Sequence record: NC_054908.1
Source of the DNA: Escherichia phage vB_EcoM_DalCa
Direction: 5' to 3' (one strand)
DNA length: 64,000 bases
The notes beneath the pieces were generated by a model. It was given only the letters and a program-made list of their open reading frames with translations, was not told the origin of the DNA and ran no database searches. Shown in pieces: positions 11,556 to 60,113 of the stretch; within the stretch, counting starts at the first letter, position 1, and every line of letters begins with the position of its first letter. A program made the position numbers and the translations under genes.

Positions 11556-12158
11556 TTACAGATTAAATCCTTCAAAATCAAGAGTATAGATAGTGTATGT
11601 TGAATACTTTTTGTATTCATATCTATCTGCAATTCTAAATACACTTCCAGCTGGTATCATTACTTCTTGTTCATCTGAAACTAATTCCATATTACGATAA
11701 CGATGACTATCCGGAAACTTAAAGTTTGGATTGTATTCTTTACAGCGTAGAGCTTTTATAGCATACTCCTGGAAATTGAATACCATAGGAGCTTTGAATT
11801 CAAAAATAACTTGTGTGTTATACTCTAAACCGGAAGCAAAATGTAGAGCTATATTTTTATCATATGAAGCTGATACGACTTTATCAAATGTAATAATATC
11901 AATTCCTTGATTTAATACTTGTTTAGTCTCAGCTGGAACACCTCTCCAAAGAGGTTTATCGTTTGGAACCAAACGAGATTTGATTATTTCATTTAACCAA
12001 GAATGATCGTCTGGTTTATTAGTAATACAATGAATTAAAAGTTCAATTTCAGATAAATTAAACCCTTCAGAAAGTAATTCTTCACGAATAGAAGCACGCA
12101 CCGATGCATCCATTGATTTTATTTTAAAATCTTTTAGTTGCATTACTGAGTATTTCAT
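11556..12158 (-). CDS. modA: ADP-ribosyltransferase ModA
   Basis: 200 aa as T4 ModA; R-S-ExE motif elements (LWRGV, SDEQEVMIPAG). Confidence 0.75.
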   Translation of the reverse strand: MKYSVMQLKDFKIKSMDASVRASIREELLSEGFNLSEIELLIHCITNKPDDHSWLNEIIKSRLVPNDKPLWRGVPAETKQVLNQGIDIITFDKVVSASYDKNIALHFASGLEYNTQVIFEFKAPMVFNFQEYAIKALRCKEYNPNFKFPDSHRYRNMELVSDEQEVMIPAGSVFRIADRYEYKKYSTYTIYTLDFEGFNL

Positions 12159-12778
12159 TCAACTACCTCAATATCATAAACTTTAAATGTTCCAAATGAA
12201 TCGTGTAATTTTTCTTTTGAAATAGAAGTTATTCTATACTTTCCAATTGGAATCATCCATTCCTGTTCACGCACAATCATCATTAAGTTATCAGTACGTT
12301 CTGAATCTAATCCATCAGTATCTTCATATGTATACTTAAACTCAGTATTAGGAGAAGAAAGTATAATATCGCTGATATGGTCAGAATAATTAAAAGCTTT
12401 ATCAGTTTTTAAGCGAAGTACTATTTCAGTGAAATATTCAGCATAAGAAAAAGAACACGCTGTATGCAAACTAGTAGTAAATGAATCTACTCTGTTCGTT
12501 GAAAACACTTCTCCAACTTGTAAATCTTTAATGAGTTCTTTTGTCGATTTTGATATACCACGATATAGCTGATAAGGTGATTTAGTTAAATGCTTTTTAA
12601 TGATTTTATTCAACTGCCGATGAAGAGCTTCATTCTTTTTGGCTTCCATACATTGCCAAAGAACTGACTGCTCAAAGTCAGTAAATTTTTCACAGACTTT
12701 TTTATACATATCATATTGAAAATCAACGCTTTCAGCTTTTATAGATAACTGTTCAACATCTGCAAGATTAATAATCAT
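12155..12778 (-). CDS. modB: ADP-ribosyltransferase ModB
   Basis: 207 aa as T4 ModB; paralog of ModA with YRGIS and VREQEWMIPIG motifs. Confidence 0.75.
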   Translation of the reverse strand: MIINLADVEQLSIKAESVDFQYDMYKKVCEKFTDFEQSVLWQCMEAKKNEALHRQLNKIIKKHLTKSPYQLYRGISKSTKELIKDLQVGEVFSTNRVDSFTTSLHTACSFSYAEYFTEIVLRLKTDKAFNYSDHISDIILSSPNTEFKYTYEDTDGLDSERTDNLMMIVREQEWMIPIGKYRITSISKEKLHDSFGTFKVYDIEVVE

Positions 12779-56330: not shown

Positions 56331-56620
56331 TCAGTCTCCAATTTAATGTTCATAATTCTAGCGTATGATTGTGCCATCTCCGCGCCTCGTTCTATACATT
56401 CAAAATCAGAAGAGCACGGGTCATTTTTATAGGTCGTTCTCATAAAACTATAGAATTGTTCAGACGATTCTACGCTTTTATTTTCAAAAAGCATATAAAC
56501 GTGCCTAATACCAGATTCCATAAATTTATCAAAATGAGGATCGACATTCGCTTCAATCGATGGAGATAAAACAAATGACAATCCTAGCATGGCAAATAGT
56601 GCCGTTGCTTTTAAGGCCAT
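56327..56620 (-). CDS. rI: lysis inhibition regulator RI
   Basis: 97 aa as T4 RI; N-terminal signal-anchor MALKATALFAMLGLSFVLSPSIEA; position next to tk. Confidence 0.75.
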   Translation of the reverse strand: MALKATALFAMLGLSFVLSPSIEANVDPHFDKFMESGIRHVYMLFENKSVESSEQFYSFMRTTYKNDPCSSDFECIERGAEMAQSYARIMNIKLETE

Positions 56621-56681
56621 AAAGGCCTCCTATCATTTTTGTCCTGTATTTACTTTATGCCGATGCACGGCCTTAACTTTA

Positions 56682-56846
56682 TCAAGGTATTTTTTCAAAA
56701 TTTCGCAATCTAGTATAGTCTGCCGGAGATTGGTTGAGTGATACTTCTCGACGCAAAGCTGAAATAACATTTCCAACTTCCCTACGAATTTCATCTAATT
56801 GAAGCACAGTAAGATTGCGAAGTTGCTTTTCAGTTAATTGTAGCAT
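56682..56846 (-). CDS. small hypothetical protein
   Basis: 54 aa ORF read by hand ([12 protein letters not shown]...), AAAGGGG RBS. Confidence 0.35.
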
Positions 56847-56888
56847 ATATACCCCTTTAGTTAGATAAACCTATTTATAACTTTTGCA

Positions 56889-57470
56889 CTAACCGAGCTT
56901 TTTAGTTAATTCGTTCCAGTGTTTTCTACACAAAGAAACATAAATTTCATCACCAATACAGATTTGATTACCTTCTTTAACTGGTGTTCCATCTTCCATT
57001 AATCGAGCTGTCATAATAGCTTTTTTACCACAATGACAAACTGCCTTTAGTTCAATAAGTTTATCTGCAATCGCCAAAAGTTCTTTAGAACCTTCAAATA
57101 ATTTTCCAGCGAAATCAGTCCTTAGCCCATAAGCCATAACAGGAACATTATATGTATCAACAATTCGACTTAATTGATGCACCTGTTCAGTTTTTAAAAA
57201 CTGAGCTTCATCTACAAATACACAATGAATATCTTTTTGTGCTTCAGCCCATTTATAGAACTCAAAAATATCCATATCATCCGTAATAATATTCGCTTCC
57301 TGCTTAATTCCAATGCGAGAAACGACTTCACAGACAGAATCGCGAGTATCAATAGCAGGCTTAAGAACTAATACACCCATTCCGCGTTCTTTATAATTAT
57401 GTGCAGCAGTCAAAAGAGAAGCAGATTTTCCAGCATTCATTGCTGCGTAAGTAAAAATTAAACTCGCCAT
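56889..57470 (-). CDS. tk: thymidine kinase
   Basis: 193 aa as T4 Tk; P-loop YAAMNAGKSASLL and C-terminal zinc Cys pairs. Confidence 0.9.
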   Translation of the reverse strand: MASLIFTYAAMNAGKSASLLTAAHNYKERGMGVLVLKPAIDTRDSVCEVVSRIGIKQEANIITDDMDIFEFYKWAEAQKDIHCVFVDEAQFLKTEQVHQLSRIVDTYNVPVMAYGLRTDFAGKLFEGSKELLAIADKLIELKAVCHCGKKAIMTARLMEDGTPVKEGNQICIGDEIYVSLCRKHWNELTKKLG

Positions 57471-57479
57471 ATCACCTTC

Positions 57480-57665
57480 TTAAAGCATATTCACATAAGC
57501 TATTAATTCGTTTTCTTTCTTATCAAACCGATCAGCAAATTCTTCTTGCTGTTCGGGAGATAGCGGGCCGTATTCATCATAAAAGGTGTTTGCTTCTGTA
57601 TGCTCATCTAGAAGTTCATGGATAAGCTCAAACAATTTATCTTTTTGTTCTTTACTCAGACTCAT
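57480..57665 (-). CDS. hypothetical acidic protein
   Basis: 61 aa ORF. Confidence 0.4.
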   Translation of the reverse strand: MSLSKEQKDKLFELIHELLDEHTEANTFYDEYGPLSPEQQEEFADRFDKKENELIAYVNML

Positions 57666-57835
57666 ATATTAATTTCCAGGAGTTTTAAAATAATTCGCTT
57701 TTGCTTAAATATTTCCATAGTTAAATGACCAGTATCTTTTTGACCGATTCCAATGGCAAAACCTTTATTGACAGCGAGTTCAATTAAATTATCAATCTCA
57801 CGTAACACTTCATACTGTAACTCAAAACTATTCAT
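57662..57835 (-). CDS. small hypothetical protein
   Basis: 57 aa ORF read by hand, ATGA overlaps at both ends. Confidence 0.35.
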   Translation of the reverse strand: MNSFELQYEVLREIDNLIELAVNKGFAIGIGQKDTGHLTMEIFKQKRIILKLLEINI

Positions 57836-58044
57836 TTCGGTTTACCTTCTTTAACGAAATCTGGATAAGGATAAAATCCCGAATAAAATCCTTCACCTTT
57901 ATGATTGATGCATCCTTTATTAGAACAATAGCACCAATAATCGAAATCACAAGCCATTTCATCGTTGCATAAAGCAAAAACAACTGGCCATTTACACTTT
58001 TCACAATGGGCATTTTTAAGAATACTAGTTTGGCTCATAACCAT
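57832..58044 (-). CDS. Cys-rich small protein
   Basis: 70 aa; several Cys pairs (CEKCKW, CNDEMAC, CYCSNKGC). Confidence 0.45.
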   Translation of the reverse strand: MVMSQTSILKNAHCEKCKWPVVFALCNDEMACDFDYWCYCSNKGCINHKGEGFYSGFYPYPDFVKEGKPK

Positions 58045-58262
58045 GTAACCTTTAAGCAGTATTCTTCTACATGCTGTTTACGACCTTTCTTATCAATAAA
58101 GGTATATTCAACGAATGTTCCAATGTAGTCTTTATCTACATCATGCGGACTATTAATTGGACATTTAGTACGGCAAATGCGTTCCCATTGACGAATAATT
58201 ACTGCCTTATTCTTTGGGTCATATGGATGTGGATAATGTATATTCATAATAACGGTTCCCAA
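58035..58262 (-). CDS. hypothetical protein
   Basis: 75 aa ORF. Confidence 0.45.
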   Translation of the reverse strand: MGTVIMNIHYPHPYDPKNKAVIIRQWERICRTKCPINSPHDVDKDYIGTFVEYTFIDKKGRKQHVEEYCLKVTWL

Positions 58263-58711
58263 TCAACAATCACAATTTCTAATTTAGAGGAATATGTATC
58301 TAAAATCCCCTCAATAATATCCCAGTTCCCTTTACCTATGCCTGCACCAATCCTAGGCATATAGATTGTAGGTTTAATCAGTTTATTTTCACCAAACTCA
58401 TTTAATTCTAACATACAATTCATTAAAGCGGAATACTCAAAATTTGGCCCTGGTTGAAATTGAGTATAAAGGTTGAAGCAATACGCTTTATGAGTCCTAA
58501 AGTATTTTTCATAGACTGAGTAAGAACCGAGTTTAGTTACATCACCCCATTCAGTCTGTAATTTATCAGCTTCCAAAATTTTAGGGAAAGCTTTGGTTAA
58601 TTGACCCGCTACGCCTGAACCCATAGTATGAAAACAATTGCATCCATGCGCAATATTTTTACCTTCAGCGAAAAGGGCGACAATATCGCCCTTGATATAT
58701 TTTACAATCAT
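58244..58711 (-). CDS. macro-domain protein (ADP-ribose binding/processing)
   Basis: 155 aa; macro-like motifs NIAHGCNCFHTMGSGVAG and MPRIGAGIGKG. Confidence 0.6.
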   Translation of the reverse strand: MIVKYIKGDIVALFAEGKNIAHGCNCFHTMGSGVAGQLTKAFPKILEADKLQTEWGDVTKLGSYSVYEKYFRTHKAYCFNLYTQFQPGPNFEYSALMNCMLELNEFGENKLIKPTIYMPRIGAGIGKGNWDIIEGILDTYSSKLEIVIVDWEPLL

Positions 58712-59049
58712 CTAGTACTCAATCCTCGATTATAAGAATCTACTAAACGGTCAACCATTGAATGACAAGCGGCTTTATCTTTCTCCTCCGCAACTGAACA
58801 TTCTAAGGTATTCCACTTTTTAGCATATCGTTTTAACAATGTATCATTTTTGTATCTGCTTGATTTATCTCTTTCTCCGTCTTTATATGCATATATTAAT
58901 TTCTGCGCAAATTCAGCTTGGCATGCTTTATTTTTCCCGCAATAATCCGCTGCAGTACGGTTTACATACTCTCTAATTTCAGTATATGATGTATCTGCTA
59001 ACACAGAAAATGAAATTAATCCTATACATAAAACCAAAATTTTAGTCAT
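58708..59049 (-). CDS. secreted small protein
   Basis: 113 aa; signal peptide MTKILVLCIGLISFSVLA; four Cys. Confidence 0.5.
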   Translation of the reverse strand: MTKILVLCIGLISFSVLADTSYTEIREYVNRTAADYCGKNKACQAEFAQKLIYAYKDGERDKSSRYKNDTLLKRYAKKWNTLECSVAEEKDKAACHSMVDRLVDSYNRGLSTR

Positions 59050-59587
59050 TTACTATTTCCAAAAGTTTATTATTTTTAAGGTAATTAGCCTTTTCTAGGA
59101 CTTCAGAAGCATATTTAGAACCTGCTTTAACATTCCATCCCGAATTATAAGATGATATTGCTTTTCTTATATCACCCTTATGTATATTTAACCAATAAGA
59201 AAGTTCAATGTACGCCCAGGAAGCTGAATTGGACCGTTTATTCAACATTCTTTTTATTTCAGCATCGGTCATATTATAACCAAGTTCCTTGACTCTCGCT
59301 CGCATAGTAGGCAAATAATTTTGGAACATTCCATAGGCATGATGCTTTGGTTTAGATTTTAAATTAACTCCGGCAGAGCTTTCTTGCCACAAAATAGCAG
59401 CCATTATATGACCCAATCCGCTCTTATGGATGTTTTTGTGTGTTTTATATTTTCCATCCTTAGAAAATTGTTCCCCGAATTGATACGCGTAACGCATGTT
59501 ATCGAGTTGGACATTACTGAAAGTATGCTCGGAGCTATGTGCCATCATTGAAATGGCCAATAGACCAGCGAGTAGTGCTTTTCTCAT
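59042..59587 (-). CDS. secreted SLT-domain lytic transglycosylase-like protein
   Basis: 181 aa; signal peptide; SLT-like motifs WQESS, GMFQ, SYNSGW. Confidence 0.55.
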   Translation of the reverse strand: MRKALLAGLLAISMMAHSSEHTFSNVQLDNMRYAYQFGEQFSKDGKYKTHKNIHKSGLGHIMAAILWQESSAGVNLKSKPKHHAYGMFQNYLPTMRARVKELGYNMTDAEIKRMLNKRSNSASWAYIELSYWLNIHKGDIRKAISSYNSGWNVKAGSKYASEVLEKANYLKNNKLLEIVND

Positions 59588-59594
59588 GCTTACC

Positions 59595-60056
59595 TCATTG
59601 AGTTTTAATTACTGCTTTAGAAGCCTTTCCTGGTAAACGACGACTGTTGATAATTGCCATCCTACATTGAAGTGACGGGTCTTTGAACTTCGCGTTAGGT
59701 TTACAAACTGTAAATCCAAGCCAAAGATTTCCATCTGTGATTTCTAAACGTCCAGGACGATATTCAACCCCATCAATAAAATCCTCGTCAATGTCAGGAC
59801 GCGGAGGCATACTCAGGAATTCATTAACTTCTAAAACATGGTCTTTTATTTTATGGAATAATTCAAAAACATATGTCTCATCAATCTCCCGTTGAATTGC
59901 ACGATCAAGAAGATGTTGAGAATATTTTAGATGAAACGATGAGACTCCTGCTGCTTTTGATGCCTCACGAATCTCATTGTTAATTTGACGAAACTCCGAC
60001 TCAAAGTGACGACGAAGCTTATTTCGACGGATAAAAACTTCTGTATTGATAGTCAT
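59595..60056 (-). CDS. regB: RegB endoribonuclease
   Basis: 153 aa as T4 RegB; GAGGAG RBS; early promoter immediately upstream. Confidence 0.8.
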   Translation of the reverse strand: MTINTEVFIRRNKLRRHFESEFRQINNEIREASKAAGVSSFHLKYSQHLLDRAIQREIDETYVFELFHKIKDHVLEVNEFLSMPPRPDIDEDFIDGVEYRPGRLEITDGNLWLGFTVCKPNAKFKDPSLQCRMAIINSRRLPGKASKAVIKTQ

Positions 60057-60083: not shown

Positions 60084-60113
60084 ATTATACCACAGTCAAG
60101 AGGAAAAGTAAAC
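60084..60113 (-). promoter_or_regulatory. T4-type early promoter upstream of regB
   Basis: minus strand GTTTAC, 18 nt, TATAAT. Confidence 0.6.

What the first reader, a model, noticed from the sequence alone, without database searches (positions are those of the whole stretch)
58244..58711. Macro-domain protein in the tk-regB interval
The 155 aa ORF carries macro-domain-like motifs, predicting ADP-ribose binding or removal. The same genome encodes the ADP-ribosyltransferases ModA and ModB (11556..12778), so the phage may both write and erase ADP-ribosylation, or counter host ADP-ribosylating defences.
Basis: partly seen in the sequence, partly recalled or inferred. Interest (0 to 1): 0.45.

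Follow-up and report, generated by a model that had tools for sequence, protein, structure and literature searches.

The report
T4 Tk.4 (AdfM) anti-DarTG2 macrodomain

Summary

T4 annotation has carried the macro/"A1pp phosphatase" label since at least 2006. A November 2025 preprint found tk.4 as the only transposon hit under DarTG2. It showed that a clean knockout makes T4 sensitive to DarTG2, and renamed the gene adfM.

The most likely mechanism is removal of ADP-ribose from DarT2-modified thymidines in single-stranded DNA. This is inferred, not shown for this protein.

My one addition: the Tk.4 family lacks the catalytic Lys of DarG/TARG1 and has an invariant Gln84 (102/102 homologues). It shares this with Streptomyces SCO6735, a proven thymidine-ADP-ribose hydrolase. 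PhiKZ "AdfM" is a Lys-type, DarG-like protein, so the name covers two lineages.

ModA and ModB are present as stated. Erasure of their arginine-linked marks by this class of macrodomain is chemically unlikely.

Verdict: already known, low interest.

The parts
58244..58711 (-). tk.4 / adfM coding sequence, 155 aa, a stand-alone macrodomain (stop codon included)
58613..58648 (-). Loop 1 of the ADP-ribose pocket, H22-G33 (HGCNCFHTMGSG), including Asn25 (58637..58639)
   Evidence: N25 is conserved in 101/102 homologues and G33 in 102/102. N25 aligns with PhiKZ AdfM N23, whose mutation reduces activity. By offset it corresponds to SCO6735 N27, whose N27S mutant is nearly dead.
58460..58474 (-). N80-L-Y-T-Q84 strand end. 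Gln84 (58460..58462) occupies the position of the catalytic Lys of TARG1 (K84) and DarG (K80).
   Evidence: Q84 is in 102/102 homologues. The profile alignment to TARG1 puts Q84 opposite K84. MAFFT puts it opposite the FPTK lysine of DarG and PhiKZ gp104. SCO6735 Gln85 sits at the same position and is essential for thymidine-ADPr hydrolysis.
58322..58357 (-). Loop 2 (diphosphate-binding loop), P119-W130 (PRIGAGIGKGNW). Gly126 stands where TARG1 has the catalytic Asp125.
   Evidence: P119, I121, G122 and G124 are invariant. Position 126 is only Ala or Gly in 102 homologues. Alignment to TARG1 PRIGCGLDRLQW.
60084..60112 (-). Sigma-70-like promoter upstream of regB (TTTACT-17-TATAAT with TG). It is the probable early promoter for a regB-vs.1-vs-tk.4-tk.3 transcript. 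This is inferred only.
   Evidence: It is the best promoter-like site in the consensus scan, and no minus-strand terminator lies between it and tk.4. The total number of promoter-like sites is no higher than in shuffles, so the evidence is weak. ATGA start/stop overlaps on both sides of tk.4 fit a translationally coupled operon.

Best explanation
The ORF is the tk.4 (adfM) gene of a T4-like Tequatrovirus. It encodes a stand-alone macrodomain of the ALC1/TARG1-like class. It is probably made early in infection from the regB-vs-tk.4 transcription unit. It protects the phage from the host toxin-antitoxin defence DarTG2, whose toxin DarT2 attaches ADP-ribose to thymidines in single-stranded DNA (TNTC motifs) and so blocks replication. 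The most likely mechanism is that Tk.4 binds the ADP-ribose moiety in its macrodomain pocket and hydrolyses the thymidine-ribose N-glycosidic bond, restoring unmodified DNA. It would do this without the catalytic lysine used by DarG and TARG1. Instead it would use the Asn25/Gln84 arrangement described for Streptomyces SCO6735, in which Gln positions the distal ribose and an activated water attacks.

Shown: gene identity, the macro fold, the conserved pocket residues, and (published, for the identical T4 protein) the genetic requirement under DarTG2. Inferred: the hydrolase activity, the DNA-thymidine substrate, the Gln-type chemistry and the early expression.
For: The protein is 155/155 identical to T4 Tk.4, and the locus is collinear with T4 from tk.3 through vs.4, which includes tk.4, vs, vs.1 and regB. 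The HIDEN-SEQ preprint 10.1101/2025.11.20.689424 found tk.4 as the single significant hit under DarTG2. A clean knockout sensitises T4 to DarTG2, and the AF2 model resembles the Mtb DarG macrodomain. Earlier work showed that T4 lacking adfA and adfN is still DarTG2-resistant, which predicted another factor.

SCO6735 has Gln85 at the same position. It cleaves thymidine-linked ADPr-DNA and protects against DarT, and its Q85A mutant is dead. PhiKZ AdfM, another phage macrodomain, removes DarT2 marks from DNA in vitro. T5, which is DarTG2-sensitive, has no Tk.4-family gene.
Against: No biochemical assay of T4 Tk.4 was found in the searchable literature, and the genetic evidence comes from a preprint. 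Tk.4 lacks both residues of the TARG1 Lys/Asp dyad, and at residue 32 it lacks a lysine that is important for DNA activity in SCO6735. The Q84 to SCO6735 Q85 equivalence is transitive, through TARG1 and BT1257 alignments, because I could not obtain the SCO6735 sequence to align directly. T4 DNA carries glucosyl-hydroxymethyl-C (established knowledge), so the TNTC motif is chemically altered. It has not been shown which DNA DarT2 modifies during T4 infection.
Confidence: 0.78

Rival explanations
1. Tk.4 neutralises DarT2 mainly by binding the toxin, or by shielding ADP-ribosylated DNA, without needing catalysis.
For: Catalytically dead SCO6735 Q85A still inhibits DarT in vitro, more strongly than DarG K80A or TARG1 K84A. 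Tk.4 lacks the canonical Lys/Asp dyad.
Against: The active-site residues N25, Q84 and the GxG loop are invariant across 102 diverged phage homologues, which argues for selection on catalysis. Tk.4 has no counterpart of DarG's C-terminal DarT-binding domain: it matches only positions 2-146 of 338 in the DarG model. PhiKZ AdfM acts catalytically.
Confidence: 0.1
2. Tk.4 is an ADP-ribose-1''-phosphate phosphatase (Poa1p-like) that clears a by-product of RNA repair. This is the legacy 'phosphatase' annotation.
Against: 'A1pp' is simply the old SMART name for the macrodomain, and no assay lies behind the annotation. From established knowledge, the T4 PNK/Rnl1 repair route does not produce Appr>p, which comes from the Tpt1/KptA pathway. 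The only phenotype known is DarTG2 sensitivity.
Confidence: 0.05
3. Tk.4 is the eraser for the phage's own writers Alt, ModA and ModB, removing ADP-ribose (or RNAylation) from host proteins to time the infection programme.
For: ModA and ModB are encoded in the same window. Writer-plus-macro pairs exist in other systems, for example sirtuin-Macro pairs.
Against: ModA targets arginine (Arg265) and Alt also modifies arginines. Arginine-ADPr is cleaved by DraG/ARH enzymes, while TARG1-like macrodomains cut ester or thymidine linkages. tk.4 lies about 46 kb from modA/modB with no linkage. tk.4 was a hit only under DarTG2. Many phages carrying Tk.4 homologues belong to families not known to encode Mod-like ARTs.
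Confidence: 0.03
4. Tk.4 broadly counters other NAD/ADP-ribose-based defences, such as CmdTAC mRNA ADP-ribosylation or Thoeris signals, with DarTG2 only one target.
For: Macrodomains accept many ADP-ribose conjugates. SCO6735 also acts on protein Glu/Asp-ADPr.
Against: CmdTAC robustly defends against T-even phages even though they carry tk.4 (abstract). SCO6735 was inactive on 2'-OH RNA-ADPr. No data exist for other systems.
Confidence: 0.04

Closest known systems
Phage T4 Tk.4 = AdfM (NP_049723.1; HIDEN-SEQ preprint 10.1101/2025.11.20.689424)
   Same: 155/155 identical protein, same position between tk.3 and vs, same length.
   Different: Nothing at the protein level. The host phage is not T4 itself: the cassette between tk and tk.3 differs, and the flanks are 97-98% identical at the nucleotide level.
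Streptomyces coelicolor SCO6735 (PDB 5e3b) and Bacteroides BT1257 (2fg1/2afc): Gln-type ALC1/TARG1-like macrodomains
   Different: They are cellular, not viral, and only about 26-29% identical. Residue 32, where SCO6735 has the DNA-positioning Lys34, is Ser here and Ala/Ser in the family. The direct SCO6735 alignment covers only the C-terminal loop.
DarG antitoxin macrodomain (Mtb 5m3i, T. aquaticus 5m31/5m3e) of DarTG2
   Different: DarG uses Lys80 (FPTK) where Tk.4 has Gln (LYTQ). DarG has a second, DarT-binding domain (338-position model) that Tk.4 lacks. Tk.4 scores 30 bits against an equivalog cut-off of 250.
PhiKZ gp104 'AdfM' (Cell Rep 2026, PMC13309987)
   Same: A phage-encoded stand-alone macrodomain that counters DarTG2. 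The conserved loop-1 Asn (N23 there, N25 here) is important.
   Different: gp104 is a close DarG relative: E=9e-25 to Mtb DarG, 133 bits on PADLOC DarG against 36 for Tk.4, and it keeps the FPTK lysine. It is only about 18% identical to Tk.4. It is imported into the phage nucleus, which T4 does not have.
Human TARG1/OARD1 (4j5r) and yeast Poa1p (6lfq)
   Different: The TARG1 K84/D125 dyad is replaced by Q84/G126. The substrates of those enzymes are protein Glu-ADPr, OAADPr and Appr1p.

Membership tests
Macrodomain superfamily (Pfam PF01661) | Sequence match above Pfam's gathering score | tested here: met
   27.7 bits against a cut-off of 22, E=2.9e-6, profile positions 2-113 of 118.
Macrodomain superfamily (Pfam PF01661) | Three-layer alpha/beta/alpha macro fold | tested here: met
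Macrodomain superfamily (Pfam PF01661) | ADP-ribose binding | not testable with these tools
ALC1/TARG1-like macrodomain class (TARG1, DarG, Poa1p, SCO6735) | Closer in structure and sequence to this class than to the MacroD, PARG or macroH2A classes | tested here: met
TARG1/DarG Lys-type hydrolases | Catalytic lysine (TARG1 K84, DarG K80) | tested here: not met
   Gln84 stands at that position in Tk.4 and in 102/102 family members.
DarG antitoxin (NCBIfam NF048014 equivalog) | Full-length two-domain protein scoring above the equivalog cut-off, encoded next to darT | tested here: not met
   30.3 bits against a cut-off of 250. Only model positions 2-146 of 338 are matched. The neighbours are vs and tk.3, not darT.
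SCO6735-like Gln-type thymidine-ADPr hydrolases | Gln at the catalytic-Lys position plus the loop-1 Asn that positions it | tested here: met
   Q84 and N25 are present and invariant or nearly so. Equivalence to SCO6735 Q85 and N27 is by transitive alignment and residue offset.
SCO6735-like Gln-type thymidine-ADPr hydrolases | Hydrolysis of DarT-made thymidine-ADP-ribose on ssDNA | not testable with these tools
   This needs an enzyme assay. It is supported only indirectly by the T4 tk.4 knockout phenotype.
Anti-DarT factor AdfM (T4 Tk.4) | Orthology to T4 tk.4, the gene shown genetically to be required under DarTG2 | tested here: met
   100% protein identity and conserved synteny. Phenotype from the preprint.

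The most novel reading that the evidence does not exclude
Besides neutralising DarT2, Tk.4 might also trim ADP-ribose or RNAylation marks written by the phage's own Alt/ModA/ModB enzymes. T4 would then be a self-contained write-and-erase ADP-ribosylation system. A milder version, which the sequence data already favour, is that phages recruited thymidine-ADP-ribose hydrolases at least twice, from chemically different macrodomain lineages: Gln-type Tk.4 and Lys-type PhiKZ AdfM.
Probability: 0.05. Interest if true: 0.6.

Novelty: already known. Interest (0 to 1): 0.15.

Why it matters
The gene shows how T-even phages stack several counter-measures against DNA ADP-ribosylation: AdfA, AdfN against DarTG1, and Tk.4/AdfM against DarTG2. 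That story is already in the literature for the identical protein. What remains open is biochemical. Is T4 Tk.4 a thymidine-ADP-ribose hydrolase that works without the catalytic lysine, like SCO6735? And how does DarT2 act on glucosyl-hmC-containing T4 DNA? The observation that two unrelated macrodomain lineages now share the name AdfM is a minor clarification for annotators.

Tried and rejected
1. I tried to get a direct SCO6735 (5e3b) alignment across Gln85 by querying the PDB with the C-terminal 96 residues of Tk.4. Only the PRIGxG loop aligned, so the Q84/Q85 equivalence stays transitive.

2. MAFFT of Tk.4 with BT1257 shifted the Gln region by two residues. I relied on the HMMER profile alignment, which pairs Q with Q.

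3. I looked for bacterial Tk.4-family members next to darT, to test an 'orphan antitoxin' origin. The two 'bacterial MAG' homologues I examined are on T4-like phage contigs carrying Rnl1, PNKP, dCMP deaminase and a T4 spanin, so they gave no information.

4. Pfam finds nothing for ModA/ModB. PHROGs and nucleotide matches to annotated records were needed.

5. The plus-strand terminator-like hairpin inside the tk.4 5' end (58673..58693) is no more than shuffles predict, so I dropped it.

6. The CmdTAC and AdfN papers contain no data on Tk.4.

7. A search for Tk.4 together with ADP-ribos* found only three papers, and only one of them is functional.

Full report
**Observation.** It lies between thymidine kinase (56889..57470) and regB (59595..60056). 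Its start codon overlaps the stop of the upstream vs gene (ATGA). Its stop overlaps the start of the downstream tk.3 gene (ATGA).

The macrodomain assignment holds up on several independent tests:
- Pfam PF01661 scores above the curated cut-off (27.7 against 22 bits, E=2.9e-6, nearly full-length).
- PHROG 335 matches at E=1.3e-65.
- Sequence hits to solved macrodomains include BT1257, Poa1p, SCO6735, DarG and TARG1.
- An AlphaFold2 model built on 102 homologues has pLDDT 96.1 and pTM 0.91.

There are two adjacent ORFs of 200 and 207 aa. Both match PHROG 832, 'RNA polymerase ADP-ribosylase'. Both are 98% identical in DNA to records annotated modA/modB.

**Identity.** The window is a T4-like Tequatrovirus. 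The 2.3-kb region around the ORF matches 727 phage records, the best being Yersinia phage PYps5T at 99.7%. The protein is 155/155 identical to T4 Tk.4 (NP_049723.1). RefSeq annotates that protein as 'phosphatase; contains A1pp phosphatase motif'. A1pp is the old SMART name for the macrodomain, and a 2006 comparative paper already reported this match for tk.4 orthologues. Other records call it 'macro domain protein' or 'Poa1p-like family protein'. The domain observation is therefore not new.

**Function in the literature.** The HIDEN-SEQ preprint (bioRxiv 10.1101/2025.11.20.689424, November 2025) screened a T4 transposon library on cells expressing DarTG2.
- tk.4 was the single significant hit.
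- A clean tk.4 deletion made T4 sensitive to DarTG2.
- The authors noted structural similarity to the M. tuberculosis DarG macrodomain and renamed the gene adfM.
- They infer, but do not show, enzymatic removal of ADP-ribose from DNA.

This filled a gap left by earlier work showing that T4 lacking adfA and adfN is still DarTG2-resistant. A 2026 Cell Reports paper independently gave the name AdfM to PhiKZ gp104. It showed in vitro that gp104 removes DarT2-made ADP-ribose from a TNTC oligonucleotide, with N23A reducing activity. A search for Tk.4 together with ADP-ribosylation found no biochemical study of the T4 protein.

Within that class it is not a DarG equivalog:
- It scores 30 bits on the NCBIfam DarG model, whose cut-off is 250.
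- It covers only the macro half of that two-domain model.
- On the PADLOC DarG model it scores 36 bits, against 133 bits for PhiKZ gp104.

The catalytic lysine is missing:
- The profile alignment to TARG1 places Tk.4 Gln84 opposite the catalytic Lys84, and Gly126 opposite Asp125.
- MAFFT places the LYTQ motif opposite the FPTK motif of both DarG structures and of gp104.
- In 102 homologues of 34-98% identity, Gln84 is invariant (102/102).
- Asn25 and Thr83 are each present in 101/102.
- Tyr82 and the G122-x-G124 loop are invariant.
- Position 126 is only Ala or Gly.

This pattern matches Streptomyces SCO6735. A 2022 study showed that SCO6735 has Gln85 at the Lys position and cleaves thymidine-linked ADP-ribose on DNA. 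It protects against DarT. Q85A kills it and N27S nearly kills it, and it is proposed to work through an activated water rather than a lysine.

Tk.4 is thus best described as a Gln-type, SCO6735/BT1257-like enzyme. PhiKZ AdfM is a Lys-type close relative of DarG (E=9e-25 to Mtb DarG). The two 'AdfM' proteins share about 18% identity and represent different lineages. The equivalence of Tk.4 Q84 with SCO6735 Q85 is transitive, because I could align only the C-terminal loop of 5e3b directly.

**Mechanism.** The best-supported account has four steps:
- The gene is transcribed with regB, vs.1 and vs, probably from an early sigma-70-type promoter at 60112..60084. This rests on a consensus match only.
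- The protein binds the ADP-ribose attached by DarT2 to thymidine in ssDNA.
- It hydrolyses the N-glycosidic bond, with Asn25 and Gln84 positioning the distal ribose.
- Replication can then proceed.

The genetic requirement is shown for the identical protein. The fold and the conserved pocket are shown here. The chemistry and the substrate are inferred from SCO6735, DarG and PhiKZ AdfM. One small correlational check fits: T5, which the preprint used as the DarTG2-sensitive control, has no Tk.4-family ORF in a six-frame HMM search (best E=0.04). The window has exactly one, at E=7e-65.

**Rivals.**
- Purely stoichiometric inhibition of DarT2 is possible, because dead SCO6735 still inhibits DarT. 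The invariance of the pocket residues argues for catalysis.
- The legacy 'Appr-1''-p phosphatase' reading rests on a domain name rather than an assay.
ModA modifies arginine, arginine-ADP-ribose is removed by DraG/ARH enzymes, and TARG1-like macrodomains cut ester or thymidine linkages.
- A broad anti-ART role is not supported. CmdTAC still defends well against T-even phages that carry tk.4, and SCO6735 is inactive on 2'-OH RNA-ADPr.

**Distribution.**
- tblastn finds homologues in 2845 of 50,697 phage records. Most are large myoviruses of Enterobacteria, Klebsiella, Vibrio, Acinetobacter, Aeromonas, Pseudomonas and Campylobacter.
- The large protein collection gives 203 hits.
- Two homologues labelled as bacterial MAG proteins sit on T4-like phage contigs.

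**Verdict.** The finding is already known at both the domain and the functional level. The only increment from this analysis is the Gln-type active-site assignment and the distinction from PhiKZ AdfM. Interest is low.

Noticed in passing
window 57471..58033 (minus-strand ORFs 57480..57665, 57662..57835, 57832..58044): The segment between tk and tk.3 is not collinear with T4. T4 has tk.1 and tk.2. The window has a diverged Tk.2-like ORF (54% aa identity, DUF7438), a 57-aa ORF with no family hit, and a 70-aa phage zinc-binding-domain ORF (PF23895). The flanks are 97-98% identical to T4. Yersinia phage PYps5T has the same number and sizes of annotated ORFs here. This is a small swapped cassette right next to tk.4.
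   Followed up: partly
window 58708..59049 (-): The vs gene (valyl-tRNA synthetase modifier) is 113 aa here against 115 aa in T4, at 96.5% identity. The 2-residue difference lies near the N-terminus. The HIDEN-SEQ preprint reports vs as the most strongly depleted gene in minimal medium.
   Followed up: no
window 59042..59587 (-): vs.1 encodes a 181-aa protein with a hydrophobic N-terminus (MRKALLAGLLAISMMAHS), which I read by eye as a possible signal peptide, and an SLT lytic-transglycosylase domain (Pfam E=4.8e-5). It is 99.4% identical to T4 Vs.1. A macro gene followed, one ORF further on, by an SLT-domain gene also occurs in a distant T4-like contig (L007).
   Followed up: no
window 60084..60112 (-): This is the best sigma-70-like promoter match in the region (TTTACT-17-TATAAT with an extended -10 TG), just upstream of regB. 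No minus-strand terminator-like site lies between it and tk.
   Followed up: no
L004 6948..8595 (phage T5 record 56447..58094): T5 encodes two proteins annotated Sir2 (T5.102 and T5.105), that is NAD-dependent enzymes. It has no Tk.4-family macrodomain anywhere in its genome.
   Followed up: partly
window 58673..58693: A perfect 8-bp inverted repeat (AAGGGCGA-caata-TCGCCCTT) lies within codons 7-13 of tk.4. The scan scored it as a plus-strand terminator-like site, but the number of such sites is no higher than in shuffled sequence.
   Followed up: no
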